Part shown: positions 29,647 through 44,759 of the stretch, in pieces | Numbering within the stretch: the first letter of the stretch is position 1 | Layout: each line of letters opens with the position of its first letter | Position numbers and translations under genes: made by a program | NCBI GenBank assembly: GCA_050176585.1 | Contig: JBFXHX010000021.1 | Location: 1,172-65,171, forward strand | Length of the DNA stretch: 64,000 nucleotides | Reading direction: 5' to 3' | Source of the DNA: Candidatus Binatia bacterium | GTDB taxonomy: Bacteria; Desulfobacterota; Binatia; HRBIN30; CADEER01 | Notes under the pieces: generated by a model | Databases searched by the model: none | What the model saw: the letters and a program-made list of their open reading frames with translations, nothing else | What the model was told of the DNA's origin: nothing

Positions 29647-29671
29647 ATTGAGGCGGTGCCGGCTTACGAAC

Positions 29672-31126
29672 TTAGGCGCCGAGGCGCCCGAGCCGGCGCA
29701 GTGCCCACAGCAAGCCGATACCCAGGCCGCCAATCAGCACGAGACCCGCCGGGCTGGCCGGCGACGGTACGACCGGTATGGGCGGACGAGTGCGCGTCGG
29801 GGTCGACGTAATCGTCGGCGTGTTGGTCGGCGTCCTTGTCGGCGTCAACGTCGGCGTATTCGTCGGCGTGTTGGTCGGCGTATTCGTCGGCGTATTTGTC
29901 GGCGTATTCGTCGGCGTGTTGGTCGGCGTATTCGTCGGCGTATTGGTCGGCGTGTTCGTCGGCGTGTTGGTCGGCGTATTCGTCGGCGTATTGGTCGGCG
30001 TGTTCGTCGGCGTGTTCGTCGGCGTATTCGTCGGCGTATTCGTCGGCGTATTGGTCGGCGTGTTCGTCGGCGTGTTCGTCGGCGTGTTCGTCGGCGTATT
30101 CGTCGGCGTATTCGTCGGCGTGTTGGTCGGGGTGTTGGTAGGCGTAGCCGTCGGCGTGTTCGTGGGCGTGTTGGTCGGGGTATTCGTGGGCGTCGCCGTC
30201 GGCGTGTTCGTCGGCGTATTCGTCGGCGTCGGAGTGTTGGTCGGCGTATTCGTCGGCGTGCTGGTCGGCTGCTCCGGCGGCCCTTGGCTATTGTTCGCGC
30301 CGTTGGCACTCACGACTTGGTTCGTACCCGAACACGGCGCCGAGACGTCAGTGGTAATGCCGAAGAAGTTCGCCGCGATCGCAAACGAGTTCATTTGCAG
30401 CGAGCTGTTGTACACGAACACGATCACTTGACCGTTGTCGAGCGAGAACCCGTCCGTAGGCTCCGCCGCGCACAGCGTCGTGTTCACGGTCACGTTGCTA
30501 GAATTGTCGCAGACGTTACTGGTGGCCGGCAGATTGAACGCGAAGGCGTTTCGCAGATTGGTCCCGTCGCAGGCGGCGTTGAGGTTCTCGGCAATGCAGG
30601 CCGGTCCGACGCTGTCGTTCGTGTCCAAGGGAACCAGAGGTTGGACATTGGACTGGCCCATACAGTCGAATGCATTACCGCAGATGTTCAGCGCACCCGC
30701 CCCCGACCCGAGCGTGACCCGGCCGCCGAAGGAGTTGGTGAAGGAGATGTTCATGCTGTTGGGCGTTAGCTGAACGGTGCGGCGGATTTGCCCGTAGGGA
30801 AAGAGGATCTGTGGTGGGACGTTGTTGGGCAGCACGCCGCCGATGGCTGACGTGAGCTCACCAGGGCTCATGCCTGTGCCGTTGCACGAGCCAGCGCCGA
30901 CGATGGAGCCGGCCACAGTGGTGATCCGCAGACGTTCTGCAGCGCCGAGGTTCTCCGCGCTCAGGACCTGATAAGCAGTGCCATCTGCCGCGCGGAACAG
31001 CGCCTCCACGCCTTGCGCATTGGCGTTACTCACCAGCCACACGCACGCGACCAAGGCCGCCGCCGCGTGTGCTGCCAGTGACCCGAGCGGGCGGCTGGGA
31101 AAGGACCTCTTTATTGTGGTGACCAT
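29672..31126 (-). CDS. Secreted Cys-rich surface protein, long TNTP stalk, IPVVPSP-type C-terminal anchor (copy A)
   Basis: GGAG RBS, signal peptide ending ANA, about 250 aa head with 8 Cys, about 40 PT(N/A)T units, tail [23 protein letters not shown]. Confidence 0.85.
29800..30265. repeat. 12-bp coding minisatellite (PTNT)n, about 38-40 units
   Basis: tcggcgt(a/g)tt(c/g)g repeated continuously. Confidence 0.95.
30250..31021. repeat. About 770-bp direct repeat, copy 1 (second copy at +1362)
   Basis: Line-by-line comparison with 31612-32383 shows about 6 substitutions. Confidence 0.93.
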
Positions 31127-31167
31127 CTGGTTTCTCCACCTCCGGTTACGCGGCTTCGACCCGCCTC

Positions 31168-31196
31168 GAAGTACACAGAGCCTCAACCCTGGTCAA
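31168..31196 (-). promoter_or_regulatory. Candidate sigma70 promoter for copy A
   Basis: TTGACC-N17-TACTTC on the minus strand. Confidence 0.35.
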
Positions 31197-31270: not shown

Positions 31271-32482
31271 CTATTTGGTCAGTGCCATACGGCGGAGGGC
31301 CCACAGGAGTCCCACACCGAGGCCGATAATCATCACCACGCCCGCTGGGCTGGCCGGCGAGGGCACCACCGGGATCGGCGGACGCGTGTTGGTCGGCGGC
31401 GGGGTGTTCGTCGGCGTATTCGTCGAGGTTCTAGTCGGCGTCAGCGTCGGCGTGTTCGTCGGCGTATTCGTCGGCGTATTCGTCGGCGTCAGCGTCGCCG
31501 TGTTGGTCGGCGTATTCGTTGGGGTATTCGTGGGCGTATTCGTCGGCGTATTTGTCGGCGTGTTCGTCGGCGTCGCCGTCGGTGTATTCGTCGGGGTGTT
31601 GGTCGGCGTGTTCGTCGGCGTGCTGGTCGGCTGCTCCGGCGGCCCCTGGCTATTGTTCGCGCCGTTGGCACTCACGACTTGGTTCGTACCCGAACACGGC
31701 GCCGAGACGTCAGTGGTAATGCCGAAGAAGTTCGCCGCGATCGCAAACGAGTTCATTTGCAGCGAGCTGTTGTACACGAACACGATCACTTGACCGTTGT
31801 CGAGCGAGAACCCGTCCGTAGGCTCCGCCGCGCACAGCGTCGTGTTCACGGTCACGTTGCTAGAATTGTCGCAGACGTTACTGGTGGCCGGCAGATTGAA
31901 CGCGAAGGCGTTTCGCAGATTGGTCCCGTCGCAGGCGGCGTTGAGGTTCTCGGCAATGCAGGCCGGTCCGACGCTGTCGTTCGTGTCCAAGGGAACCAGA
32001 GGTTGGACATTGGACTGGCCCATACAGTCGAATGCATTACCGCAGATGTTCAGCGCACCCGCCCCCGACCCGAGCGTGACCCGGCCGCCGAAGGAGTTGG
32101 TGAAGGAGATGTTCATGCTGTTGGGCGTTAGCTGAACGGTGCGGCGGATTTGCGCGTAGGGAAAGAGGATCTGTGGCGGGACGTTGTTGGGCAGCACGCC
32201 GCCGATGGCTGACGTGGGCTCACCAGGGCTCATGCCTGTGCCGTTGCACGAGCCAGCGCCGACGATGGAGCCGGCCACAGTGGTGATCCGCAGACGTTCT
32301 GCAGTGCCGAGGTTCTCCGCGCTCAGGACCTGATAAGCAGTGCCATCTGCCGCGCGGAACAGCGCCTCGACGCCTTGCGCATTCGCGTCGCTCACCAGTG
32401 AGACAAGTACGACAACGGCGAAGCCGATTTGCATCGCGGCGACGGCCATGCCACGGTAAACGCAGTCAATTCTCCGGCCCAT
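31271..32482 (-). CDS. Secreted Cys-rich surface protein, short TNTP stalk, IPVVPSP-type C-terminal anchor (copy B)
   Basis: GGAGG 9 nt before ATG 32482; different signal peptide, same head as copy A, about 20 PTNT units, tail [23 protein letters not shown]. Confidence 0.85.
   Translation of the reverse strand: MGRRIDCVYRGMAVAAMQIGFAVVVLVSLVSDANAQGVEALFRAADGTAYQVLSAENLGTAERLRITTVAGSIVGAGSCNGTGMSPGEPTSAIGGVLPNNVPPQILFPYAQIRRTVQLTPNSMNISFTNSFGGRVTLGSGAGALNICGNAFDCMGQSNVQPLVPLDTNDSVGPACIAENLNAACDGTNLRNAFAFNLPATSNVCDNSSNVTVNTTLCAAEPTDGFSLDNGQVIVFVYNSSLQMNSFAIAANFFGITTDVSAPCSGTNQVVSANGANNSQGPPEQPTSTPTNTPTNTPTNTPTATPTNTPTNTPTNTPTNTPTNTPTNTATLTPTNTPTNTPTNTPTLTPTRTSTNTPTNTPPPTNTRPPIPVVPSPASPAGVVMIIGLGVGLLWALRRMALTK
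31385..31627. repeat. 12-bp coding minisatellite (PTNT)n, about 20 units
   Basis: Same unit as 29800-30265. Confidence 0.93.
31612..32383. repeat. About 770-bp direct repeat, copy 2
   Basis: Near-identical to 30250-31021. Confidence 0.93.
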
Positions 32483-32552
32483 AGCGCTCATCCTCCAATC
32501 TCCACGCGGCGCAGCATCGGGAGAGAGTTCTCCCGAGTCGACCGGCAAGCGG

Positions 32553-32580
32553 ATTACCACCGGCCCCCGCTAGCTGTCAA
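32553..32580 (-). promoter_or_regulatory. Candidate sigma70 promoter for copy B
   Basis: TTGACA-N16-GGTAAT on the minus strand. Confidence 0.35.
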
Positions 32581-33141
32581 GTACAAACGATTGGCGGCCG
32601 CAGAATATTGCGCTGCCGCCCGCCGCCCCCCACACCGGCAAGAATTAGTCGGGAATGGCCATCTCGCCTGCTGCGGGAAACTCGGATCAGTCCTCGCAAC
32701 ATATTTACTCCCCACAGCATCCACCGGGTGGTGCCTACGCCTCCTGACCACCCGCACGCGACCTCGAACGGAAAGCAGCTGGGCAACACGTATAAGGGTT
32801 GGCCGAGTCCGTAATCCGGCCGACGACCAACGGCGAACGAGCTTTAGCTCACACTCAAAGAACAGCGAATGCCGGCGAGCTCCCGACCAGCACCACCGCG
32901 TCCCCAGCAGTGCTCGCCGTCCCAGAACTACGCGGCAACAGCGGCACAATTTTGGCCACTGAACGCGTTACTGGCGGGGAACTGTCGTTCGCCGAGCGCC
33001 GGCTCTTGCCTCGCGACTGCCCATTATCTAGAAGGCCACGCGGCTCCGACGCTCGGCACCGCTGGCACACCACGTGCTCCGACCGCTTGGGCGGTGGGTA
33101 GTACACGAAAGGGACGGGAAACCGGTTGGAAAGTGGTGGCA

Positions 33142-36100
33142 ATGCGGATTAGAACACAAACTTGGCTCGCGGGCGTCCTTGTCGTCGCCGCCTCTCTCGG
33201 CGGTGGCGTCGTCCGCGCCCACGCCCTCTCGGGCATCATCGATACCTACGTCGGCGGCGGCAACGGCGACGGCTCGGCTGCGCAAGGCGCGATCATCGAC
33301 CCGCGCGGCTTCATCGCCGTGGGCTCGGAGTCGGCGCCCGACTTCTACATCGCCGACAGCCTCAACAATCGCGTGCGGCGAGTGGACGGGAATACCGGCC
33401 TCATCGAAACCATCGCCGGCAACGGCGAGCGCGGTTTCAGCGGTGATGGCGGCAGCGCCGTCAATGCAAAGCTCGCGTCCCCGCTCGATGTGGCCCGCGA
33501 CAGCGCCGGCAACGTCTATATTGCGGATACACAGAACAACCGCATCCGGAAGGTGACACCGAGCGGGCAAATCTCGACGTTCGCGGGCACAGGCGTCCTC
33601 GCTTACAGCGGCGACGGCGGTTTGGCCACGCAGGCAGCCCTGTACAACCCGCAAGGCGTCGCCGTCGGGCCGGACGGTTACGTCTATATCGCCGATAACG
33701 GCAATAACCGCATCCGCAGCGTCGGACCGCCGGGGTGTGGTCCCTCGACCTGCGTGATCACCACGGTGGTCGGCACAGGCACTGGCGGCTTCAGCGGCGA
33801 CGGCGGACCGGCCAATCTCGCGATGATCCGCAATCCCGCCGACGTCGCCTTCGACGGCGCCGGCACCATGCTAATCGCCGACTTCTCCAATCACCGCATC
33901 CGCAAGGTCGTCAATGGAGTGATCCTGACGATCGCCGGCGGCGGCACCGGGTTGAACGGCGCGATTGGGGACGGCGGCCCGGCGCTGACGGCCGTGCTGC
34001 GTTACCCGACCCAGGTCGCTGCCGATAATGCCGGGAATGTCTATATCGCGGACAGTCAGAACCGGCGCATTCGCGTCGTGCAGGCCGCCACCCAATTCAT
34101 CGTTACGGCGGCCGGCACAGGTACCTCTGGCACCACTGGCGACGGCGGGCCGGCCGAGAACGCCAGCATCCAAAATCCGTTCGGCGTCGCCGCGATCGGC
34201 AAGACGATGTGGCTCAGCCAAACGGTGGCGCAGCAGAGCTCCCGGCAAAACCGCGTGCGCCGCGTGCTCGACGGGGTAATCACGTCCGTGGTCGGCGGCG
34301 ACCTCGGCGATGGCGCGCCGGCGTATGATGCTTTGGTCGACCCGCGCGGCGCGGATGCCAAAGCCGGCGACGGGGCGGTTCCCGACCTGTATTTCGCCGA
34401 CAGCTCCGACAACCTGGTCCGTTTCGTCGACGGCGCCACTGCCACGATGCAGATCATCGGTGGTACGGGCGCAGCCGGGTACTCCGGCGACGGTGGTCCG
34501 GCGACCGCGGCCCAGCTGCGGGCGCCGTCGGACGTCGCGGTCGACAATGACGGCAACGTGTACGTCGCCGACACCGCCAACCACGCCGTCCGGCGCATCG
34601 ATCCCGAGGGCAGGATCACCACGGTTGCCGGAAAAGGCACGCGCGGCGCCAGCGGCGACGGTGGGCCGGCGACCTCCGCGCTGCTCGCGTCACCGACCGG
34701 CGTGGCGATCGACGACTTTGGGCGGCTGTTCATCGCCGATATGGAAAATAACCGTATCCGGGTGGTGATTGGCGGCGTCATCGAGACCTTCGCCGGCACC
34801 GGAGAATCCAACTACGGTGGCGACGGCGGTGCGGCGGCGGCGGCCAAGCTGCGGTTCCCGAACGACGTGGCGGTCGCCAAAGACGGCACTGTGTATATCT
34901 CGGATACCTTGAGCAACCGCATTCGCCGCGTCGATGCCCGGGGAATCATCACCACGTACGCCGGCGTGGGCACCGCGGGATACAACGGCGACGACATCGC
35001 CGCGACCAGCGCGCGCCTGAACTCGCCTTTGCAAATCGCCGTGGACGACACCGGCAACCTGTTCATCGCCGACTCGCGCAACCTCCGCATCCGCATGGTC
35101 GACCCGGCATCGGGCGTAATCTCGACGGTCGCCGGCAACGGCCAGAGCGGCGATACCGGCGACGGTGGGTCGGCAACCGCCGCATCGTTCAGCGATCCTT
35201 CCGGTATCGCGGTCGATCCGTTGACCCGCGCGCTGTTCATCAACTCCAAGCCGGATACGCGCGTGCGCATCGTCGAGTTTTCGGGCGCCTCTCCGCCACA
35301 ACCGACGGCTACGCCGACTGCCACGTTCGCCCCGCCCACGGCTACACCGACCTTCACATCGATCCCACCCACGGCGACCCGGACGCCTACCAACACCGCG
35401 CCCGCGCCGACCAACACCGCGCCCGCGCCGACCAACACCCCGCCGCGCACGAACACCCCGGGTTCCTCCACGGCCTCGGTCGCCGGCGTGGTGAAGTACT
35501 ACGCCAACTCGCAGATGGTCAGCTCGGTGGACGTCGCCGTCACCGGCTCCGCTAATATGACCGTGCGGACTAATGGGCAGGGAAGCTATGCCGCCACCGG
35601 GCCCGATGGCACCTGGGCACTCGAGCCCCGGAAGACAGGCGCTTTCGGCAACGCGGTGAGCTCGCTCGATGCCGCTCGCGTCCTCCAAGCCATAGTGGGC
35701 AAGACCCAGCTGTCCCCCATGCAGCGCCTGGCCTGCGACGTCACTGGCGATGGCACGCTCAGCTCCTTCGACGCCGTGCACATCCTGCAGCTCAGCGCGG
35801 GCGTGATCAAGCGGTTCCCGGCAGCCACCAACTGCGGTTCGGATTGGCTGTTCTACCCCTCCCCGGTGACCATTGCCGGACAGCAGATCGTCGAGCCGAG
35901 CTTGACCGGCGGTACATGCCGGCAGGGCGAGATCGTCCTGAGCGCGCTGAACGACTTCGTACAGCGACAAGACTTTGACGCCATCCTGTTCGGCGATTGC
36001 ACCGGCAACTGGACGCCGACCAGTGGCGCGCTGCGCCAGACCGCCGGCAACCCCAACGTCAAGGCCGGGCCGCCCCGGTACGCCCGCGGCAACCGCGTGC

Positions 36101-36390
36101 TGATCCCGATCTTCGTAACGGGAACCCAGGAGTTCGACGCTCTCGACCTCGCCATCAGCTTCAATACCGCCGAAGGCGAGTTCATCGATGCGCGGCTCCG
36201 CAACGATCCCGGCGATGCCCTGCTAAACGTCACCCGCGAACAGGGGCAGATCACCATTAGCATCGCCAGCGGCTCACCGATCCCGGTCAGCGGGGGCCCC
36301 GTGCTGCTTCTCGCGTTTACCGCCGACGGCGACGCCGACCTCGGATTCAACCTCGACGGCGCATCCGTCGACGAGCAACTCGCGCGCTGA
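33142..36390 (+). CDS. Secreted multidomain protein: NHL-repeat propellers, PT linker, beta-sandwich, dockerin-like, C-terminal cohesin-like
   Basis: Signal peptide ending AHA; repeated GDGGPA...P.DVA.D..GN.YIAD..N.RIR blades; SSLDAARVLQ...ACDVTGDGTLSSFDAVHILQ dockerin pattern; C-terminal VLIPIFV...LDLAISFN...ITISIA...GPVLLLAF; no TM anchor. Confidence 0.85.
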   Translation: MRIRTQTWLAGVLVVAASLGGGVVRAHALSGIIDTYVGGGNGDGSAAQGAIIDPRGFIAVGSESAPDFYIADSLNNRVRRVDGNTGLIETIAGNGERGFSGDGGSAVNAKLASPLDVARDSAGNVYIADTQNNRIRKVTPSGQISTFAGTGVLAYSGDGGLATQAALYNPQGVAVGPDGYVYIADNGNNRIRSVGPPGCGPSTCVITTVVGTGTGGFSGDGGPANLAMIRNPADVAFDGAGTMLIADFSNHRIRKVVNGVILTIAGGGTGLNGAIGDGGPALTAVLRYPTQVAADNAGNVYIADSQNRRIRVVQAATQFIVTAAGTGTSGTTGDGGPAENASIQNPFGVAAIGKTMWLSQTVAQQSSRQNRVRRVLDGVITSVVGGDLGDGAPAYDALVDPRGADAKAGDGAVPDLYFADSSDNLVRFVDGATATMQIIGGTGAAGYSGDGGPATAAQLRAPSDVAVDNDGNVYVADTANHAVRRIDPEGRITTVAGKGTRGASGDGGPATSALLASPTGVAIDDFGRLFIADMENNRIRVVIGGVIETFAGTGESNYGGDGGAAAAAKLRFPNDVAVAKDGTVYISDTLSNRIRRVDARGIITTYAGVGTAGYNGDDIAATSARLNSPLQIAVDDTGNLFIADSRNLRIRMVDPASGVISTVAGNGQSGDTGDGGSATAASFSDPSGIAVDPLTRALFINSKPDTRVRIVEFSGASPPQPTATPTATFAPPTATPTFTSIPPTATRTPTNTAPAPTNTAPAPTNTPPRTNTPGSSTASVAGVVKYYANSQMVSSVDVAVTGSANMTVRTNGQGSYAATGPDGTWALEPRKTGAFGNAVSSLDAARVLQAIVGKTQLSPMQRLACDVTGDGTLSSFDAVHILQLSAGVIKRFPAATNCGSDWLFYPSPVTIAGQQIVEPSLTGGTCRQGEIVLSALNDFVQRQDFDAILFGDCTGNWTPTSGALRQTAGNPNVKAGPPRYARGNRVLIPIFVTGTQEFDALDLAISFNTAEGEFIDARLRNDPGDALLNVTREQGQITISIASGSPIPVSGGPVLLLAFTADGDADLGFNLDGASVDEQLAR

Positions 36391-36750
36391 GCGCGCACGC
36401 GACGGGACGGCGCGCCGATCTGGGCGCGCCGTCCGGTCGGCCGATCCGCCTGCTTCGAAGCGTGTTACCAGAGCGCACGTGCGACTTGCACGGGCGCTAT
36501 CGCGCTTCCTGGGCAACGTACCGGGTTGAGGGCGCATCGCGGCAGGCGCTTCACGAACTACTGGCGGCGCCGGCCCGATCAGCGGAGGGCGCGGCACCTC
36601 TACGCGAAACCGGCGACACGGACGTCGACTTGGCTTCAGTCGGGGCGGCGCCGTGTACGAACGGGTTACGCCTCAATCGCAGACGACCTCCTCCGTAAGG
36701 CGCATTGATTGCCGCGGCTGCAGAAGCAGTCCGCACGGCGCTTTCTCACT

Positions 36751-36818
36751 TTGACATTGACTCAGTGCCAAATAACACCATTATCCACTTGACTTCGACA
36801 CGGTGGTCGCCCTAAAAC
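36751..36818 (+). promoter_or_regulatory. Stacked sigma70-like promoters
   Basis: TTGACA (36751), TTGACT (36757)-N16-CATTAT, TTGACT (36789)-N18-TAAAAC in an AT-rich island. Confidence 0.5.
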
Positions 36819-36883
36819 GTGCGCGAGATTTGAGGCATGACACGCGTCGTGTCCGGCGCGTATGGCTGTTCGGAGGGTTGGGA

Positions 36884-37993
36884 ATGGGTCTCATGATGGC
36901 GCGTATGGGGAGGAGCGTTGTTCAGTCTGTCCTCATGCTCGCCGTCCTGCTGAGCGCGGGCGAAGGGTGGGCCGTTCAAGTGGCATTGCCCGACGCAACG
37001 GTGGCCATGGGAATGTCCACGGATGTTCCTGTGACGATTGCGGACAGCAACGGCGTCCTGAGCGTGGCTTTGTCTTTCACGTACACCGCCGCGATAGCGA
37101 CCGCCACGCAGGTGTCGGGTACACCCGCGACGAGCGGGTGCACGATTCAGCCGAGCCTCACACCGAGTATGGTCACCATTGTGGCCGCTTGTCCGAACGG
37201 GATCGGAGTTTGCAGCAACAACCCAAACCAAGGCTGCAATCCGAGCGCGCCGAACTGTGGCTCGGGTAACACGTGCACCACCGGCAACCTGCAGCTATTC
37301 AACGTCACGTTTTCGGGCGATTCGCCGGGGATGACGCCTCTGATGTTCGCCGCCACTCAGACGATTCCCAACGGCTGCCAGCTGAACGAGGGCACGCCGT
37401 CATGTGAACCCGACAACGGTTCACTTACGGTAACTGGCGAGGGGCCAACTGCCACCGCGACATCGACCTCCGTGGCGACCAGCACAGCCACGAGCACGGC
37501 GATCGCCACCAGCACCGCGACTAGCACAGCCGTGGCCACGGCTACCAACACCTCGACGGCGATCAGCACCCCGTCGAGCACGGCCACGCCGGTGGTGACG
37601 AGTACGGCGACGCTGACCAACACTATCGGCCCGTCACCCACCCTCACCAACACCGCACCCCCCACCAGCACGAGTACGCCTATCAATACCGCAACCACGA
37701 CGCAGACGAGCACGGTGACAGGCACGGTCACCAATACGCCGCTGGCCACGAACACCGTGACAAATACGGCCGTAAACACCCCGACCGGCACGCCACAAAA
37801 CACTGGAACGGCGACGATCACCCGGACACCGACCGCGACCCGCACGGTAACCAATACCCGTGAGGCGACCTCCACGCGTCCGGCTATTCCGGTCGTGCCC
37901 TCGCCGATGAGCCCCGGTGGCGCGGCAATGATCATCGCACTCGGCGGCGGATTGTTCTGGGCGCTGCGCCGCATGGCGCGAATCGGCGCGTAA
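36884..37993 (+). CDS. Cohesin-like domain on a Thr-rich stalk with IPVVPSP-type C-terminal anchor (scaffoldin-like)
   Basis: GGAGGG RBS, signal peptide ending GWA, VPVTIADSNGVLSVALSFTY...LFNVTF...TPL cohesin pattern, about 145 aa Thr stalk, tail RPAIPVVPSPMSPGG-TM-FWALRR. Confidence 0.8.
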   Translation: MGLMMARMGRSVVQSVLMLAVLLSAGEGWAVQVALPDATVAMGMSTDVPVTIADSNGVLSVALSFTYTAAIATATQVSGTPATSGCTIQPSLTPSMVTIVAACPNGIGVCSNNPNQGCNPSAPNCGSGNTCTTGNLQLFNVTFSGDSPGMTPLMFAATQTIPNGCQLNEGTPSCEPDNGSLTVTGEGPTATATSTSVATSTATSTAIATSTATSTAVATATNTSTAISTPSSTATPVVTSTATLTNTIGPSPTLTNTAPPTSTSTPINTATTTQTSTVTGTVTNTPLATNTVTNTAVNTPTGTPQNTGTATITRTPTATRTVTNTREATSTRPAIPVVPSPMSPGGAAMIIALGGGLFWALRRMARIGA

Positions 37994-38026
37994 CTACAGA
38001 CCGAACGCGGAAAACCTCTAGCCGTG

Positions 38027-38058
38027 CATGCCCCGATGAGCTACACCGTCGGGGCATG
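38027..38058 (+). terminator. 12-bp stem-loop between the anchored and free cohesin genes
   Basis: catgccccgatg-N8-cgtcggggcatg; no U-tract, so possibly a stabilising or processing hairpin. Confidence 0.45.
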
Positions 38059-38073
38059 GAAATACGCTATGCC

Positions 38074-38628
38074 ATGCGGGCAAGAGGTAATTCGGATACT
38101 GTTCGCAGCGCGCGGCGCCATCCCGCCGCGCGCTGGCAATTCAGCGCAGTCGCAAAAGCCACGACCAGGATGCTCGCCGCCTCGGTGTTGATGGCGGCCG
38201 GTGCGGCCTCGGGCGTGGAACTGCGGCTCCCAGAGAACGCGGCAATCGACGCGGTCGACGGCACCACCGTGGTGCCTATCACGATTGCGGACACGGCAGG
38301 TGTCCAAGGCATCGCGATCTCGCTGACCTACGCTGGCGACATCGCTACCGCGACGCAGGTCGTGAGCTCGCCGGTGGCGTCGAAATGCACCGTCATGCCC
38401 GGCCTGGCGACGCCGGGTATGATCACGATCGTTGCCGCCTGTCCGGGCGGTCTTGCAGAGGGCACCGACGTCCCCCTGTTCCAAGTGAAGTTCAAAGGAA
38501 ACCGAGGCGGCGTCACGCCGCTGTCGTTCAGCGCCGCACCAAACATTCCGAACGGGTGCCTCCTCAATGAAGGCGCACCGACCTGCGAGCCCCACGGCGG
38601 ACAGCTCACCGTCCGCGGCGGAGCGTAA
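38074..38628 (+). CDS. Stand-alone secreted cohesin-like protein, paralog of the upstream domain
   Basis: VPITIAD..GV...SLTY...IATATQV...C...TIVAACP...PNGCLLNEG.P.CEP aligns with the 36884 protein; start uncertain (38056, 38074 or 38170). Confidence 0.75.
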   Translation: MRARGNSDTVRSARRHPAARWQFSAVAKATTRMLAASVLMAAGAASGVELRLPENAAIDAVDGTTVVPITIADTAGVQGIAISLTYAGDIATATQVVSSPVASKCTVMPGLATPGMITIVAACPGGLAEGTDVPLFQVKFKGNRGGVTPLSFSAAPNIPNGCLLNEGAPTCEPHGGQLTVRGGA

Positions 38629-38935
38629 TTCGCTCCGGACCTGCTCTACATCGACGTCGACTTGCAACGGTACCGCGGTGGCGGTAACCCGCCGAGCGTG
38701 ACTCCGCGCGGCGATCAAACCCCTCGCGCGCGGCTGAGCTGAGCCGCGCCCCTTTATCGCAACCGGCGGCGGGTGCACGCCACCCGCGCCGGTCTGCGTC
38801 AGCCCGCGTAGCGGGATCTCACACGGGCCCCTTCTTCCGGCGTCGCGGCACCGATGGCCCATTCGGCGCGGTCCGCTGCGCGTGGCGGCCCGAACCGTCT
38901 GGCTGCTCCCCCTGCGATCCGCTACACCTCGGCAC

Positions 38936-41491
38936 ATGAGCGATCGCGATTTCCGCCTCCCGCGCCATGTCAGGCCGCGGCGCTATGCGCTGCGCATCGA
39001 CGTCGACCTCGACGCCTGGCGCTTTCGCGGCAGCGAGGAGATCGAGCTGCACCTCGACGCCCCTTCCGAGGCGATTGTTCTGCACGCGTGCGAGCTCGAT
39101 ATCTCGTCCGTGCGCGCCGAGCTCCCCGAAGGCACTCAGCTGATCGGCAGCGCGAGCTTCAACCCCGTCGCCGAGACCGCCACGCTGAGCTTCGGCCGCG
39201 AGCTGCCCGCCGGGCCGATGCGGCTCTCGCTCGACTTCAGCGGCACGATTCTCGCGCGTTTGCGGGGGTTTTACCGCTCGCAGAAGGACGGCCTGCGGTA
39301 CGCCGCGACACAGTTCGAAGCCGCCGATGCTCGCCGCGCCTTCCCCTGCTTCGATGAGCCGGAGTTCAAGGCTCGTTTCGCGGTCACATTGATCGTCCCC
39401 GCTTCCGCCGTGGCGGTCGCCAACGGTGCTGTCGTACGCGAGATCGACCTCGGCGATGGGCACAAAGAGGTGCAATTCGCGGAAACGCCGCCGATCTCGT
39501 CGTATCTGGTCGCCTACACGGTCGGCCCGTACGAGGCCACCCCGGTCACTCACACCGCCACCGGCTGGCCTGTGCGCGTCTTTCTGCCTCGCGGGATGGC
39601 GGACAAGGGCCTGTACGCGCGCGACGCCCACGCCCGCTCGCTCGAGTATCTGGAGGACTACACCGCGATCCCGTATCCGTACGTAAAGGTCGACGCCATC
39701 GGCGTGCCGGACTTCGAGGCGGGCGCGATGGAGAATCCCGGCGCCATCACCTACCGCCTGACCGCGATCGCCGCCGACGCGGCGCGCGCCTCCACACCAG
39801 CGCTGAAGGGCATCTTCTACACGGCCGCCCACGAGCTCACCCACATGTGGTGGGGAGACCTGGTCACCATGGCGTGGTGGGACGACCTCTGGCTCAACGA
39901 GTCGTTTGCCACCTTCATCGGCTACAAAGTGGTCGCCGATCTCATGCCGGAATGGGGAATGTGGCGCGACTTCGTGGCCACGCTGGCGCGCCCGTTCAAT
40001 CTCGATGCGCTCGCCTCCACACATCCGGTCTCCTTCGAGGTGAAGAACGCGAAGCAGGCGACCGAGCGCTTCGACGTGATCACCTACTGGAAGGGCGCGG
40101 GCGTGGTGCGCATGCTCGAGGGCTTCATCGGGGCCGAGGCATTCCGGACCGGCGTGCGCGCTTACCTCGACCGCTACCGCGAGGCGAACGCCACCGCGGA
40201 CGATTTCTGGCGCGAGCTCAGCACCGCGTCGGGCCGCGACATCGCGAACATCGCCAACACCTGGATCAAGCAGGCCGGCCACCCGTTGCTGTCGTTCGAC
40301 ACGCGCGGCGACGAGTTGCTCATCCGCCAGCGGCGCTTCTTCGCGGACCCCGAATCCCTGCCCGACGCTGACGGCGCGCTGTGGCCCACCCCGGTCGTGA
40401 TCAAGTACGGTACGGGTTCGACAATCGATCAGCTGGTTGTGGTCATCGACCGCGCCGAGCAGCGCGTCGCCCTCCCCGGCGCCGAGTGGTTCTACCCGAA
40501 CGGCGACGGTGCCGGCTTTTTCCGCTTCGCACTGGACGACGACGCCTTCGCCCGCCTGGTGCCGGAGGTTCAGCGCGCGCTCAACGCACCCGAGCGCCTC
40601 GCGTTGATCGGGAACCAATGGGCACTGGCGAAGAGTTGCAAGATCGATCTGGGGCAGTTCGTCGACATGCTCGGCGGCTTTCGGAACGAGACCGATCGGG
40701 CTGCCCTGTCCGCCATCACCGAGCGCCTGTACTGGGTGGGAACGCATCTGGTCGACGACCCAGACCGCCCGCTCTTCGAGCGATTCACCGGCGCGTTCTT
40801 CAGTCCACACGTCGCCGCGCTCGGGTGGGATCCGAAGCCCGGCGAGAGCGCCGACGACCGATTGCGACGCGCTACCGCGATCGCGGCGCTCGGCGAGCTG
40901 GCAGAGGACCTCACCGTGATCGCCGAGGCCCGCCGGCGCCTGGAAGGCTATTTCACCGACCCGTCGACCCTCGACCCGAACCTCGCCTCCGCGGTCGTCA
41001 ACATCGCGGCGCGGCGCGGCGACGCCACCCTCTACCAGCGATACCTGGAGCGCAAGCGCGCCGCCGCCACCGACCCCGAAGAAGAACAGCGCTTTCTATT
41101 CGGCCTCACCTCCTTCGAAGACGCCGCGCTGATCAGGCGGACCCTGGACCTCACCCTCACCGAAGAGGTGCGGCCCCAAGACCGGCCGCACCTCTATGCC
41201 CGGCTGCTCGGCTCGCGCGCCGCGCGTTTGTCCACCTGGGCCTTCATGCGCTCGCGTTGGGAGGAGATCACCTCACGGCTCGATCCCATGCTGCAGCAGA
41301 ACATCATCCGCGCGCTTGCCCAGCTGACCCCCGAGCCCGCTGCGAGCGAGGTTCGCGCGTTTCTGCCCGCGCGTGCCACTGACGAGACTCGGGAGACGAT
41401 CGCGCAGACGCTCGAGCAGCTCACAATCGACGCCGCCGTGTGCAAGCGCCTCACGCCAGTGGCGGGCGCCGCGCTCGCGCGAGCTCGCTGA
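38936..41491 (+). CDS. M1 family zinc aminopeptidase with ERAP1-like C-terminal domain
   Basis: [33 protein letters not shown]...WLNESFA. Confidence 0.96.
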
Positions 41492-43606: not shown

Positions 43607-44031
43607 CTTGACAGGGGTTGGAACGCGCGACTCACTCGCGATCTCTCGCTCTCGTACTGCTGCGGGCCAGGGAGCAAACCACGTCGCTGCCAGGTATACG
43701 AGTTTTCCATTGCAGCGACTAGTCGAGCAAGTCGCGAACCAGGGACTGCTTCCAGCCGCTCGGCCTCTGGGCTCGAAGCCGCGCAGATTTCCGGCAGGGC
43801 GACTGTAGCTATTCCAGTCTCCGGCCCGCGCGGCAGGAGGTATTCCAAGGTGGCACGCTCTCCATGGCCGGACCGCGTAATATCTGCACGGCGGTACCGA
43901 AGCGGCAAATCTCGACGCCCGTTCAGCGTTCGCGTCGACGGCTCGGCTCGCCGGAACGGACTTTGCGTGGAGCTGTCCTCCAGACGTTCGCGGTTGCCGC
44001 AGGCAATCGGGACAGCGAAGGGAAGACCATC

Positions 44032-44670
44032 ATGAACCCAGACGTCAGAGCCACACGAGCGCTTAAGAGCTTGATCCTCGGGGCAGCGACATTGCTCACG
44101 GCGCTGACTCCTTCAGCGCGCGCAGCCGTGCTCCGCGTTCCCGACATCGCCATAGGTTTAGACACTCCGAACGCCGTCGTAGCGATCTCGATCGACGATG
44201 CATCCGGGGTGGAGGAAGTCGATCTCGTCGTCGGTTACGACCCGCTGCTTCTGTCAGTCTCGACCCCGGTGCTTTCGACCGACCTGTCGTCCGGCTGCAT
44301 CGTCGCATCCAACTACGACACTCCGGGCATCGTGTACGTCAGCGTCGCATGCCCGGAGCCCATGAGCGGCAGCGGCGCGCTGGTCTCCGTACCCGTACAG
44401 CCGCTCAAAGCCGGTACCGGTACGTTGGACGTGCGTTGCGAGCTCAACGGCCTGTCGCTCCCGTGCGACGTGGGTATGGGGTCGGTCACGATCGAAAACG
44501 AGCCCCGGCCAGCCAAGTTCGACATGAACGTCGGCGAAGCACACCGCGCCCCGGTGGAGTCGGCCCGCCGGATTTTCGGCGCGCCGCGCAGCCCTGAGCC
44601 GGCGCGAGATCGCCGCGCGCTGTGGGTCCGAAGGGTTTCGCTGGAGCTTGGACGGCCGATGGAGCTGTAA
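44032..44670 (+). CDS. Secreted cohesin-like protein (third member of the 4-Cys type)
   Basis: Signal peptide ending ARA; VAISIDDASGV...LVVGYDP cohesin pattern; SGC...VAC...CELN...C spacing matches the 36884 and 38074 proteins. Confidence 0.7.
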   Translation: MNPDVRATRALKSLILGAATLLTALTPSARAAVLRVPDIAIGLDTPNAVVAISIDDASGVEEVDLVVGYDPLLLSVSTPVLSTDLSSGCIVASNYDTPGIVYVSVACPEPMSGSGALVSVPVQPLKAGTGTLDVRCELNGLSLPCDVGMGSVTIENEPRPAKFDMNVGEAHRAPVESARRIFGAPRSPEPARDRRALWVRRVSLELGRPMEL

Positions 44671-44759
44671 CTCTGACAGGCGCTTCAGCTCGTCGCGGCA
44701 CCGACGCTCGCCCGGGGGAGAGCTGTCGAGCGGCGCGCTGATTGCACCCACGGATGCCC

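What the first reader, a model, noticed from the sequence alone, without database searches (positions are those of the whole stretch)
33142..38628. Candidate non-cellulosomal cohesin-dockerin surface-display system in a diderm
Seen: three co-oriented secreted proteins. (i) NHL propellers, PT linker, dockerin-like Ca-loop (ACDVTGDGTLSSFDAVHILQ) and a C-terminal cohesin-like domain, with no membrane anchor. (ii) A cohesin-like domain on a Thr stalk ending in a TM sorting tail. (iii) A free paralogous cohesin. Known: cohesin-dockerin pairs assemble cellulosomes on anchoring scaffoldins in anaerobic Firmicutes, and the domains also occur outside cellulosomes with mostly unknown roles. Inference: (ii) is an anchoring scaffoldin that captures (i) and possibly other dockerin proteins, (iii) is a soluble cap or competitor, and the cargo is an adhesin-like propeller. 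No glycoside hydrolase is visible, and the host encodes an aerobic oxidase and lnt.
Basis: partly seen in the sequence, partly recalled or inferred. Interest (0 to 1): 0.85.

Follow-up and report, generated by a model that had tools for sequence, protein, structure and literature searches.

The report
Non-cellulosomal cohesin-dockerin locus in a diderm
Three neighbouring genes of an uncultured Gram-negative bacterium really do encode cohesin and dockerin modules, the protein "plug and socket" known from cellulosomes, here on non-cellulolytic secreted proteins and conserved as a gene pair across a bacterial family, although their binding has not been shown.

Summary
P1 (33142-36390) is a secreted double NHL propeller with a PT linker and a C-terminal cassette. 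In the cassette, a type I dockerin (Pfam 23.6 bits, cut-off 22.9) sits between the two parts of a CarboxypepD_reg-like beta-sandwich. A true cohesin fold follows it (Z 12.4 to solved cohesins). P2 and P3 are 45% identical and miss the Pfam cohesin model, but they are cohesins by family profile (E 3e-9 to solved cohesins) and by fold (pLDDT 93, TM 0.70). P2 ends in a Thr stalk and a sorting tail, IPVVPSPxSPxG-TM-RR, at the position where orthologues carry IPTL-CTERM.

The system is wider than reported:
- The genome has 11-12 cassette proteins (Matrixin, FG-GAP, GSDH, Laminin_G and other cargos; no glycoside hydrolase).
- The P1-cohesin gene pair is conserved in 9 of 9 relatives' loci examined.
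- Cassette and both cohesin types share one phyletic pattern: two families of one order, and 0 of 300 other genomes of the phylum.

Binding, partner choice (P2, or P1's own cohesin) and surface location remain inferred. The complex prediction gave no verdict. I file it as a new variant of the known non-cellulosomal cohesin-dockerin kind, interest about 0.6.

The parts
33142..36390 (+). P1: secreted NHL-propeller protein of 1082 aa with a C-terminal cassette (sandwich, dockerin, cohesin)
   Evidence: ORF. Pfam NHL, TEN_NHL and Dockerin_1. Orthologues of 1030-1120 aa.
33226..35280 (+). Two NHL beta-propeller regions (about residues 29-713)
   Evidence: Pfam NHL 3.4e-49 in 8 stretches and TEN_NHL 2.2e-55 in 9 stretches. 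The boundaries are approximate.
35281..35469 (+). Pro/Thr linker (residues 714-776)
   Evidence: Located; composition read from the sequence.
35467..35631 (+). N-terminal part of the CarboxypepD_reg-like beta-sandwich (residues 776-830)
   Evidence: AF2 strands E8-61 of the cassette. VIA matches to carboxypeptidase-D regulatory, CnaB and transthyretin-like sandwiches have Z 7.5-8.4 and span model residues 4-192. Paralogues match only positions 3-65 of the 82 in Pfam PF13620 before the dockerin starts.
35632..35844 (+). Type I dockerin (residues 831-901). The second Ca loop, DVTGDGTLSSFD, is canonical; the first loop is degenerate.
   Evidence: Pfam PF00404 23.6 bits against a cut-off of 22.9, and 29.7 bits in the genome scan. 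A profile of 11 paralogous modules hits the solved ScaB dockerin at E 2.1e-8. AF2 helices H72-82, H90-96, H106-116 and H124-129. Loops read.
35845..35994 (+). C-terminal part of the sandwich (residues 902-951), carrying conserved Cys and followed by the GDCTGNW motif (residues 951-957, window 35992-36012)
   Evidence: AF2 strands E133-180. Invariant C124, W128, C152, G177, D178, N182 and W183 in the 11 paralogues.
36040..36387 (+). cohB: the C-terminal cohesin of P1 (residues 967-1082)
   Evidence: VIA Z 12.4 to 2vo8. Rows 1-16 are all cohesins, over model range 198-313. Foldseek's ten best hits are all cohesins.
36884..37993 (+). P2: cohesin on a Thr stalk with a sorting tail (the ORF opens at 36803; the called form P0125 starts at 36884)
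36968..37447 (+). cohA cohesin domain of P2, with a 23-residue Cys-rich insert and four conserved Cys
   Evidence: 45% identical to P3. The family profile hits solved cohesins. Alignment A7.
37448..37876 (+). Thr-rich stalk: 143 residues, of which 59 are T, 20 A, 16 S and 11 P
37877..37990 (+). C-terminal sorting tail: RPAIPVVPSPMSPGG, a hydrophobic helix, then RRMARIGA
   Evidence: Only 3 ORFs in the genome carry this tail, all in this window. The tail is conserved in orthologues, or replaced there by an IPTL-CTERM-like tail.
38170..38628 (+). P3: free cohA-type cohesin with no stalk and no tail (the ORF opens at 38056)
   Evidence: AF2 pLDDT 93.4. All 35 Foldseek rows shown are cohesins; best 6kge, E 2.7e-8, TM 0.70.
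31271..32560 (-). Divergent neighbour: unknown Cys-rich 'X' domain, PT stalk and the same IPVVPSP tail
   Evidence: Conserved upstream of P1 orthologues in 6 of 8 loci. Its domain is fused behind a cohA cohesin in P0128 (52% identity, E 2e-71).
29672..31186 (-). Second X-domain protein with a PT stalk and the IPVVPSP tail. The length of its PT repeat is uncertain.
   Evidence: No contig bridges 29878-30615.
43864..44670 (+). Fourth, divergent cohA-type cohesin protein, with no anchor
   Evidence: cohA HMM E 6e-33; translation.

Best explanation
The locus is the conserved core of a lineage-specific, non-cellulosomal cohesin-dockerin system that assembles secreted proteins.

Shown:
- P1, P2 and P3 all carry signal peptides.
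- P1 carries a dockerin set inside a beta-sandwich, followed by its own cohesin (cohB).
- P2 carries one disulfide-type cohesin (cohA) on a 143-residue Thr stalk. It ends in a tripartite sorting tail that is positionally equivalent to IPTL-CTERM.
- P3 is a stalk-less copy of that cohesin.
- Ten or eleven further proteins of the genome carry the same sandwich-dockerin cassette on unrelated cargos (protease, propellers, dehydrogenase, lectin-like domain).

Inferred mechanism:
- P2 is processed or held by its tail and presents its cohesin at the end of the probably glycosylated stalk.
- P1 docks on P2 through its Ca-dependent dockerin.
- P1's own cohesin then offers a second socket for another cassette protein. 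P1 would thus be an adaptor rather than a simple cargo, and chains or networks can form.
- P3 would bind the same dockerins without tethering them.
- The cargo set points to adhesion and to protein or matrix processing at the envelope, not to polysaccharide breakdown.
For: Domain identity:
- The dockerin passes the Pfam cut-off.
- A profile of the 11 paralogous dockerins hits solved dockerins at E 2.1e-8.
- 23 of the 41 HMMER relatives of P3 carry PF00963.
- The family profile hits solved cohesins at E 3.3e-9, 2e-7 and 1.1e-6, the last being the Archaeoglobus non-cellulosomal cohesin 2xdh.
- Both AF2 models are confident (pLDDT 93.4 and 92.3), and cohesins fill the top of both fold searches.

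Genetic linkage:
- A P1 orthologue (NHL, cassette, cohB) is directly followed by one cohA gene in 8 of 8 fetched loci from seven genera, and in a ninth, more distant genome.
- By coordinates the same triple adjacency is seen in 15 of the 16 published genomes of the same family.

Co-distribution over the same 41 genomes:
- Cassette: f1 17/17, f2 14/15, f3 0/5, f4 0/3.
- cohB: f1 17/17, f2 12/15, f3 0/5, f4 0/3.
- cohA profile: f1 17/17, f2 12/15, f3 0/5, f4 0/3.
- Generic PF00963 is in 38 of 41, so the shared pattern is not a general cohesin pattern.

Modularity:
- The cassette is attached to NHL, SBBP, Matrixin, CAP, PQQ, M28, reprolysin and GSDH cargos in relatives.
- In this genome it is attached to Matrixin, FG-GAP, HZS_alpha, GSDH and Laminin_G_3.
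- In relatives, cohA, cassette and cohB also occur inside single ORFs, for example G010:C6 (568 aa) and G035:C127 (1204 aa).

Anchor theme:
- P2 and three Pfam-type cohesin proteins of this genome all have the layout cohesin, T-rich stalk, C-terminal sorting tail.

A route to the surface is conceivable:
- The S-layer protein of the diderm Methylomirabilis lanthanidiphila has a predicted IPTL-CTERM domain (PMC8671808, passage read).
- One P2 orthologue passes the IPTL-CTERM model at 22.0 bits against a cut-off of 20.5.
- Three exosortase-family genes and two secretins are present.
Against: - No binding has been shown for any pair.
- P1's dockerin has an alternative partner 65 residues downstream, in the same chain. 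AF2 gives the 313-residue cassette a pTM of 0.87, which means a fixed packing of cohB against the sandwich-dockerin body. I could not see which surfaces touch.
- P1's first Ca loop is degenerate (TGAFGNAVSSLD), so P1's dockerin is atypical.
- P2, P3 and cohB all miss the Pfam cohesin model directly.
- About 490 bases separate P1 from P2 (36391-36883), so co-transcription is not evident. The pattern scan gave only chance-level sites.
- A signal peptide with a C-terminal TM tail in a diderm gives, by default, an inner-membrane protein facing the periplasm. Surface exposure needs an unidentified processing and export step.
- The P2 tail itself does not match the IPTL-CTERM model or any other curated sorting model.
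- The co-distribution of cohB with the cassette is partly trivial, because the two are often fused.
Confidence: 0.5

Rival explanations
1. Self-contained cassette, or daisy chain. The cognate socket of the cassette dockerin is the cohB-type cohesin. It acts either in cis, giving a closed and stable C-terminal knob, or in trans between cassette proteins, giving head-to-tail chains. P2, P3 and the other cohA cohesins then serve a different ligand: cassette proteins that lack cohB, the X-domain proteins, or something that is not a dockerin.
For: - cohB always lies directly behind the cassette: 3 of 11 intact cassettes in this genome and roughly half of the matches in relatives, for example 10 against 18 in G005 and 15 against 25 in G035.
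- AF2 packs cohB rigidly with the rest of the cassette (pTM 0.87, although the linker block has pLDDT 57).
- In other genomes cohA is fused to the X domain of the upstream neighbours. That links cohA to those proteins at least as much as to P1.
Against: - The conserved adjacency is specifically between a P1 orthologue and a cohA gene.
- Eight of the 11 intact cassettes in this genome have no cohB, so they need a socket in trans.
- A high pTM from an alignment cannot tell contacts within one chain from contacts between chains, and I could not read the interface.
Confidence: 0.27
2. No plug-and-socket at all. The cohesin-fold and dockerin-fold modules are structural or ligand-binding domains (Ca-stabilised spacers, or binders of glycan or exopolysaccharide) on envelope proteins. 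The gene adjacency would reflect only a shared envelope function or shared regulation.
For: - From recall, most non-cellulosomal cohesin- and dockerin-like modules have no demonstrated partner. That is my recollection of Peer et al. 2009, which I saw only as a reference title in PMC8542988.
- The first Ca loop of P1's dockerin is degenerate.
- The cohesin fold is a common beta-sandwich. In the fold search, unrelated sandwiches reach Z 7-9.
Against: - Both module types are true homologues of binding-competent modules, not mere fold analogues.
- They co-occur, are shuffled together into many architectures and share one narrow phyletic pattern. That is the signature of an interacting pair.
Confidence: 0.13
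3. Same assembly, different place. The complex forms in the periplasm on an inner-membrane-anchored P2, whose tail is a plain TM anchor and is not processed. It is not displayed on the cell surface.
For: - The topology rule for a signal peptide plus a C-terminal TM helix followed by a basic cluster is established knowledge.
- No curated sorting model matches the P2 tail.
- No dedicated sorting enzyme lies in the window.
Against: - The tail has the conserved tripartite form of processed sorting signals. In orthologues it alternates with IPTL-CTERM, and a surface-layer protein of another diderm carries that domain.
- The 143-residue stalk is longer than a periplasmic tether needs (my inference).
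- Exosortase-family genes are present.
Confidence: 0.3

Closest known systems
Cellulosomal type I cohesin-dockerin pairs with anchoring and adaptor scaffoldins (Clostridia; e.g. the ScaB/ScaC complex 4uyp/4uyq and the OlpA/OlpC single-cohesin anchors 3ul4/4dh2)
   Same: - The modules are homologous. The dockerin profile hits the ScaB dockerin at E 2.1e-8, and the cohesin profile and folds hit scaffoldin cohesins.
- The logic is the same: a single-cohesin anchor protein, plus a protein that carries both a dockerin and a cohesin, which is the adaptor layout.
   Different: - No glycoside hydrolase or CBM among the cargos scanned.
- None of the own-genome cohesin proteins examined showed more than one cohesin match.
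- The host is a diderm.
- The anchor is a Thr stalk with an IPTL-like C-terminal tail. From recall, cellulosomal anchors use SLH domains or sortase signals.
- The dockerin lies inside a beta-sandwich and its first Ca loop is degenerate.
- The cohA cohesins carry four conserved Cys.
Non-cellulosomal cohesin and dockerin modules of Archaeoglobus fulgidus (cohesin structure 2xdh) and of Clostridium perfringens glycoside hydrolases (2jh2, 2vo8, 2w1n, 2o4e)
   Same: - These are among the closest structural matches: 2vo8 at Z 12.4, 2xdh at Z 10.9 and Foldseek 4.1e-8, and 2jh2 as the best Foldseek hit of the cassette.
- They are cohesin-dockerin modules used outside cellulose degradation. From recall, proteins of A. 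fulgidus carry both module types.
   Different: - Here the modules form a multi-gene family tied to one conserved locus, with a membrane or sorting anchor.
- The cargo set is propellers, a metalloprotease and a dehydrogenase.
- The cassette architecture was not seen in those systems, but that comparison is from recall. I did not inspect their full-length proteins.
Genome-inferred cellulosome-like complex of Ca. Stygibacter (Cloacimonadota; PMC8542988, abstract and passages read)
   Same: It is a MAG-based inference of a cohesin-dockerin assembly in a non-Firmicute. The dockerins sit on peptidases as well as on glycosidases, and a cell-attached cohesin protein is proposed.
   Different: [quoted passage not shown]
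- Here the anchors have one cohesin each, the tail is IPTL-like, no GH cargo was found, and the dockerin is part of a composite cassette.
IPTL-CTERM sorting domain (NCBIfam TIGR04174)
   Same: - The layout is tripartite: a short motif beginning with IP, a hydrophobic helix, then an Arg cluster at the extreme C-terminus.
- 4 of 8 orthologues of P2 carry an IPTL-like tail at exactly this position. Of three database relatives with the same kind of tail, one passes the model (P0124, 22.0 bits against 20.5).
   Different: - P2's own tail (IPVVPSPMSPGG...) and the tails of the X-domain proteins do not match the model.
- From recall, the sorting enzyme for this class is unknown.

Membership tests
Cohesin (Pfam PF00963; cohesin beta-sandwich fold) | Sequence homology to cohesin modules | tested here: met
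   Direct Pfam scans of P1, P2 and P3 give no PF00963 match, and the genome-wide PF00963 scan has no match in this contig. Homology shows up one step further out. 23 of the 41 HMMER relatives of P3 carry PF00963 (best E 7.5e-62). The family profile A2 hits 22 PDB sequences at E <= 1, of which 21 are cohesins (best 3l8q, E 3.3e-9). The one exception, 8zvk, matches the stalk part of the profile.
Cohesin (Pfam PF00963; cohesin beta-sandwich fold) | Cohesin jelly-roll fold | tested here: met
   P3: AF2 pLDDT 93.4, and all 35 Foldseek rows shown are cohesins (TM 0.70). P1 C-terminus: VIA rows 1-16 are all cohesins, Z 12.4-9.3, over model residues 198-313. P2 was not modelled on its own; it is 45% identical to P3.
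Cohesin (Pfam PF00963; cohesin beta-sandwich fold) | Binds a dockerin | not testable with these tools
   This needs a binding assay or a structure of the complex.
Dockerin type I (Pfam PF00404) | Match to the curated model above its cut-off | tested here: met
   23.6 bits against 22.9 at residues 838-879, and 29.7 bits in the six-frame scan. A profile of the 11 paralogues hits the solved ScaB dockerin at E 2.1e-8 and other solved dockerins.
Dockerin type I (Pfam PF00404) | Two tandem EF-hand-like Ca loops, each followed by a helix | tested here: inconclusive
   The second loop, DVTGDGTLSSFD, has the usual D1, D5 and D12. The first loop in P1, TGAFGNAVSSLD, keeps only D12. Several paralogues keep D or N at positions 3 and 5. 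AF2 places helices after both loops. The canonical positions are from recall.
Dockerin type I (Pfam PF00404) | Ca-dependent binding to a cohesin | not testable with these tools
   This needs ITC, SPR or a pull-down with and without EDTA.
Cellulosome | Dockerin-borne carbohydrate-active enzymes | tested here: not met
   No glycoside hydrolase family was found in P1 or in any of the 10 proteins scanned, nine of them cassette proteins. The cargos found are Matrixin, FG-GAP, HZS_alpha, GSDH and Laminin_G_3.
Cellulosome | Scaffoldin with several cohesins and a CBM | tested here: not met
   The cohesin proteins of this genome show one cohesin match per ORF. Multi-module proteins occur only in relatives. 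No CBM was seen.
IPTL-CTERM sorting domain (TIGR04174) | Match to the curated model | tested here: not met
   P2, P4 and P5 give no match at E <= 0.1. The best match in the genome is 16.4 bits, below the 20.5 cut-off, and lies elsewhere. Relatives with IPTL-like tails score 22.0, 17.0 and 13.1 bits.
IPTL-CTERM sorting domain (TIGR04174) | Extreme C-terminal motif, then a TM helix, then a basic cluster, behind a signal-peptide protein | tested here: met
   Read from the sequences. It is conserved in orthologues and paralogues.
PEP-CTERM / exosortase system | PEP motif tail, and an exosortase gene | tested here: inconclusive
   The tail has no PEP motif and no PEP-CTERM model hit, apart from a weak NF038119 match (E 0.014) on the neighbour P5. 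Three Exosortase_EpsH matches over the cut-off lie elsewhere in the genome. No link between them and these tails was tested.
CarboxypepD_reg (Pfam PF13620) | Match to the model, or to the fold | tested here: inconclusive
   Paralogues score 20.8-28.8 bits, below the 32.3 cut-off, and cover only profile positions 1-65 of 82 before the dockerin. The structural matches (1qmu Z 7.6, 4eiu Z 8.4, 8bdw Z 7.5) span both sides of the dockerin, in the Z range the tool calls common.
NHL repeat (Pfam PF01436) | Match to the model | tested here: met
   E 3.4e-49 in 8 stretches.

The most novel reading that the evidence does not exclude
Two families of one uncultured diderm order have evolved a private building kit for their exoproteome. 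It has three parts:
- a composite tag in which a dockerin is inserted into a beta-sandwich, often followed by a cohesin, so that tagged proteins can plug into one another head to tail;
- single-cohesin anchors on glycosylated Thr stalks, delivered by an uncharacterised IPTL-type sorting pathway;
- the conserved NHL-propeller adaptor P1 as the first link on the anchor P2.
The outcome would be a self-assembling, cohesin-dockerin-linked protein layer or matrix on a Gram-negative surface. That would be a mode of envelope construction with no described counterpart.
Probability: 0.2. Interest if true: 0.8.

Novelty: new variant of a known kind. Interest (0 to 1): 0.6.

Why it matters
From recall, non-cellulosomal cohesins and dockerins have been catalogued in genomes since 2009, yet almost none has a known partner or role. 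This locus offers a compact and testable case:
- a gene pair conserved across a family;
- a defined set of about a dozen dockerin-tagged proteins per genome;
- two cohesin types that share the tag's narrow phyletic pattern;
- an anchor with a recognisable sorting signal.

If the pairs bind, three things would follow. It would show how a Gram-negative lineage organises proteases, propellers and a dehydrogenase at its envelope. It would supply a new set of orthogonal, disulfide-stabilised cohesin-dockerin pairs for protein engineering. And it would give the IPTL-type C-terminal sorting signal a clear set of substrates in which to look for its enzyme.

Tried and rejected
- Complex prediction: the whole P1 cassette (alignment A3) with the P2 cohesin (A4) as partner scored 0.23 and 0.16 against a mark of 0.32. 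That is no verdict and no evidence either way. I included the cis cohesin on purpose, which may have made the test harder. Only one job was allowed, so cohB and P3 were not tried.
- Direct BLASTP of P1 against P2 and against P3 found only low-complexity or chance matches. cohB and cohA are not alike at the sequence level.
- The single-sequence search for cohA in relatives found it in f1 10/17 and f2 0/15. I first read this as a restricted distribution. The profile search (f1 17/17, f2 12/15) and the G009 locus showed that it was a sensitivity artefact, so I dropped that reading.
- I considered the cassette as a C-terminal secretion signal, by analogy with the T9SS C-terminal domains. I rejected this because 2 of the 11 intact cassettes lie far from the C-terminus (at 73-255 of 750 aa and at 362-546 of 783 aa).
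- A tree of 13 cohA domains was meant to date the P2/P3 duplication. It was unresolved, with 0 of 10 inner branches well supported.
- The X domain of the upstream neighbours has no Pfam or NCBIfam family. The ESM Atlas gave no usable hit, and its own model is poor (pLDDT 0.30). Its fold remains unknown.
- Expression: no RNA holder was listed among the 9 runs returned. Seven DNA runs hold part of the stretch, from landfill, sludge, activated-sludge and soil metagenomes. This says nothing about expression.
- The promoter and terminator scan of 32500-39000 gave 1 promoter-like site (mean 0.7 in shuffles) and 2 terminator-like sites (mean 4.1 in shuffles). That is chance level.
- Literature. No paper holds 'cohesin' + 'dockerin' + 'Binatia', 'dockerin' + 'Binatota' or 'dockerin' + 'cohesin' + 'PEP-CTERM'. 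These searches cover only the held open-access library. Peer et al. 2009 (PMC3035643) is not held, so its content is cited from recall only. I did not open supplementary files. The sequence of mela_00855 is in a supplement of PMC8671808, so I could not compare its tail with P2's.
I did not use the look-up of encoding contigs, which was stated to be closed.
- Unpublished genome G004 is included in the tallies. Without it the f1 counts are 16/16 for the cassette, cohB and the cohA profile, and 9/16 for the single-sequence search. I fetched no locus from it deliberately. One search stored one automatically (L009), which I did not use.

Full report
**What is there.** The region holds three co-oriented ORFs.

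P1 (33142-36390, 1082 aa) starts with a Sec-type signal peptide. It matches NHL in 8 stretches and Teneurin-NHL in 9. Its Pro/Thr linker is residues 714-776. Its Pfam Dockerin_1 match is at residues 838-879, 23.6 bits against a cut-off of 22.9.

P2 (ORF 36803-37993; called form P0125 from 36884) and P3 (ORF 38056-38628; called form P0121 from 38170) have no Pfam or NCBIfam family. They are 45% identical to each other (E 3e-41).

P2 continues into a 143-residue stalk with 59 Thr. It ends in RPAIPVVPSPMSPGG, a hydrophobic helix and RRMARIGA. P3 stops right after the domain.

In a run from a different study, contigs cover 35759-37671 and 37723-39500 with few differences. The P2-P3-aminopeptidase order is therefore real.

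**Are they cohesins and a dockerin?** Yes.
- An exhaustive HMMER search with P3 found only 41 relatives among 1.84 billion representatives. 23 of those 41 carry Pfam Cohesin.
- A profile of 24 family members hits solved cohesins: 3l8q at E 3.3e-9, 6kg8 at 2e-7, and the non-cellulosomal Archaeoglobus cohesin 2xdh at 1.1e-6. Of 22 PDB sequences at E <= 1, 21 are cohesins.
- AlphaFold2 on that alignment gives pLDDT 93.4. All 35 Foldseek rows shown are cohesins, with TM about 0.70.
- I modelled the last 313 residues of P1 with 41 relatives (pLDDT 92.3, pTM 0.87). Residues 198-313 of that model match cohesins at Z 12.4-9.3 in the first 16 rows of a search that does not depend on Foldseek. Foldseek agrees.
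- A profile of the 11 paralogous dockerin modules of this genome hits the solved ScaB dockerin at E 2.1e-8, and also other dockerins.

One caveat applies to P1's dockerin. Its second Ca loop (DVTGDGTLSSFD) is canonical, but its first (TGAFGNAVSSLD) keeps only the last Asp.

**A composite cassette.** The dockerin is not free-standing. In the model, beta-strands precede it (residues 8-61) and follow it (133-180).

Structural matches to carboxypeptidase-regulatory, CnaB and transthyretin-like sandwiches align 80-89 residues that span both sides (Z 7.5-8.4). Pfam CarboxypepD_reg matches in paralogues stop at profile position 56-65 of 82, exactly where the dockerin begins.

The most likely reading is a dockerin inserted into a loop of a beta-sandwich. 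The Z values lie in the range the tool calls common, so this is an inference.

The ~185-residue unit has invariant Cys and ends in GD(C/V)TGNW. It occurs in 11 intact ORFs of this genome, plus one that is split over two frames.
- Six of the intact ORFs end right after the unit.
- Three continue into a cohB cohesin: P1, a Matrixin protein and an HZS_alpha-like protein.
- Two carry it far from the C-terminus, which argues against a C-terminal secretion signal.

The cargos found are Matrixin, FG-GAP (twice), HZS_alpha, GSDH and Laminin_G_3. No glycoside hydrolase was found in the 10 proteins scanned. In public data the same C-terminal block is attached to NHL, SBBP, Matrixin, CAP, PQQ, M28, reprolysin and other domains. 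The few names given include Candidatus Binatia.

**Conservation.** I fetched the loci around the cohA match in eight relatives from seven genera. All 8 show the same order: P1 orthologue (NHL, cassette, cohB), one cohA gene, aminopeptidase N, oligoribonuclease, then IF3 nearby. Six of the 8 also have the pair of divergent X-domain genes upstream.

A ninth genome, missed by the single-sequence search, has the same pairing once a profile is used. By coordinates the adjacency cassette-cohB-cohA is visible in 15 of the 16 published genomes of the same family. The sixteenth is not in the truncated listings.

Only this genome has two cohA genes in tandem. The tree could not date the duplication.

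In the same 41 genomes, the cassette, cohB and the cohA profile share one pattern:

| Module | f1 | f2 | f3 | f4 |
|---|---|---|---|---|
| Cassette | 17/17 | 14/15 | 0/5 | 0/3 |
| cohB | 17/17 | 12/15 | 0/5 | 0/3 |
| cohA profile | 17/17 | 12/15 | 0/5 | 0/3 |

Generic PF00963 is in 38 of 41. In an even sample of 300 other genomes of the phylum, the cassette was found in none at E <= 1e-15, with at most 11 candidates scored per genome. These tallies include one unpublished genome, G004. Without it f1 is 16/16.

In relatives the three modules also occur within single ORFs, for example cohA-cassette-cohB in 568 aa and in 1204 aa.

**The anchor.** The tail IPVVPSPxSPxG-TM-LWALRR occurs in exactly three ORFs of this genome: P2 and the two upstream X-domain proteins.
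- Among the eight orthologues of P2, four have this tail and four have an IPTL-like tail (for example AIPSLDQYG...) at the same position.
- Of three database relatives with IPTL-like tails, one passes the NCBIfam IPTL-CTERM model (22.0 bits against 20.5) and two fall short (17.0 and 13.1). None of the IPVVPSP tails matches.
- The S-layer protein of the diderm Methylomirabilis lanthanidiphila is reported to carry a predicted IPTL-CTERM domain (PMC8671808, passage read). Such tails are therefore compatible with an outermost location.
- The genome has LptD, two secretins and three exosortase-family genes. None of them is linked to this locus by any test I ran.
- Three Pfam-type cohesin proteins elsewhere in the genome repeat the layout cohesin, T-rich stalk and sorting tail, with a GGGC-type tail.

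**Link to the neighbours.** P0128 (540 aa) has a cohA cohesin. It is followed by a domain 52% identical to the X domain of the gene at 31271-32560 (E 2e-71) and then by the IPVVPSP tail. P0134 has the same layout by alignment. The X domain has no family and no usable model.

**How it most likely works.**

Shown: homologous dockerin and cohesin modules, signal peptides, a stalked and tailed cohesin, a multi-gene cassette family, a conserved gene pair, and a shared phyletic pattern.

Inferred: P2 presents its cohesin at the envelope. The dockerin of P1 plugs into it in a Ca-dependent way. P1's own cohesin accepts a further cassette protein, so P1 acts as an adaptor. P3 binds without tethering.

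I put this at about 0.5. The main rival, at about 0.27, is that the cassette dockerin is served by cohB, in cis or between cassette proteins, and that cohA has another partner. It rests on two points. cohB always lies 65 residues behind the dockerin. And the pTM of 0.87 implies a fixed packing of cohB against the rest, although the tool does not show which surfaces touch.

Whether the assembly sits on the surface or in the periplasm is a separate open point. The one complex prediction allowed gave no verdict. It is not used as evidence.

**Comparison and novelty.** The modules are members of the cohesin and dockerin superfamilies. The system is not a cellulosome: no CAZyme cargo, no multi-cohesin scaffoldin in this genome, no SLH or sortase anchor.

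Non-cellulosomal cohesin-dockerin modules are a known kind. A cellulosome-like complex has already been inferred from MAGs of another non-Firmicute phylum (PMC8542988, passages read).

Four things appear new here, as far as the held literature shows (searches found nothing):
- the sandwich-inserted dockerin cassette, with or without a trailing cohesin;
- the Cys-bearing cohA type on IPTL-like anchors;
- the family-wide conserved P1-cohA pair;
- the restriction of the whole kit to two families.

I therefore file it as a new variant of a known kind, with interest 0.6.

Noticed in passing
window 29672-31186 (-) and 31271-32560 (-): Two paralogous secreted proteins, each with an unknown Cys-rich ~270-residue domain, a PT-repeat stalk and the same IPVVPSP tail as P2. 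They are conserved upstream of P1 orthologues in 6 of 8 loci. In P0128 and P0134 their domain is fused behind a cohA cohesin. No family or fold was found.
   Followed up: partly
window 26949-29366 (-): An 805-aa YncE-like beta-propeller followed by a stalk of roughly 440 residues rich in Thr, Ala and Pro. Its tail, GGGGCAVDP...RRRRSR, scores 17.1 bits on MYXO-CTERM, below the cut-off of 20. Homologues flank the locus in two relatives.
   Followed up: partly
own genome: C5:1-852, C41:6379-7995, C10:37290-38597: Three proteins with Pfam-type cohesins share the layout cohesin, T-rich stalk and a GGGC-type C-terminal tail. They look like a second set of single-cohesin anchors, parallel to P2.
   Followed up: partly
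own genome, e.g. C9:284-3076 (-) and C10:36802-37665 (+): A second kind of dockerin is present, with Cys-flanked repeats of the form DC.GDG.VTIDELI..VNIALG. It is distinct from the cassette dockerin and accounts for some of the 23 PF00404 matches. Its partners were not examined.
   Followed up: no
own genome: 11 ORFs on C7, C11 (2), C13, C14, C29 (4), C58 and C76: Another class of C-terminal tail, (V)PAPAP(A)LS followed by a TM segment and RRRR, turned up in a loose regular-expression scan. It may be a PEP-CTERM-like variant. Together with the IPVVPSP and GGGC tails, that makes at least three tail classes against three exosortase-family genes.
   Followed up: no
window 43864-44670 (+): A fourth, divergent cohA-type cohesin protein without an anchor (cohA HMM E 6e-33). 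It lies directly upstream of a DUF748/YhdP-like gene at 44742-46397.
   Followed up: partly
L017:10522-11250 (G001, same genus): Two small ORFs are inserted between the P1 orthologue and the cohA gene. By eye they resemble an antitoxin-toxin pair, but I did not scan them against any family.
   Followed up: no
relatives: G010:C6:945250-946509; G035:C127:49548-50807; G017:C80:4171-5484: Single ORFs there contain cohA, the dockerin cassette and cohB in a row, by the coordinates. These are scaffoldin-like or self-complementary proteins and would be good material for binding tests.
   Followed up: no
window 29878-30615: The PT-repeat part of the gene at 29672-31186 is not bridged by any contig of the three runs laid, and repeat-related joints abound there. 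The stalk length in the assembly may be wrong. The long antisense 'ORFs' over the PT and Thr repeats (for example 29648-30769 +) are artefacts of repeat composition.
   Followed up: partly
own genome C4:114770-115982: One cassette is split over two overlapping ORFs in different frames. It may be a frameshifted or decaying copy.
   Followed up: no
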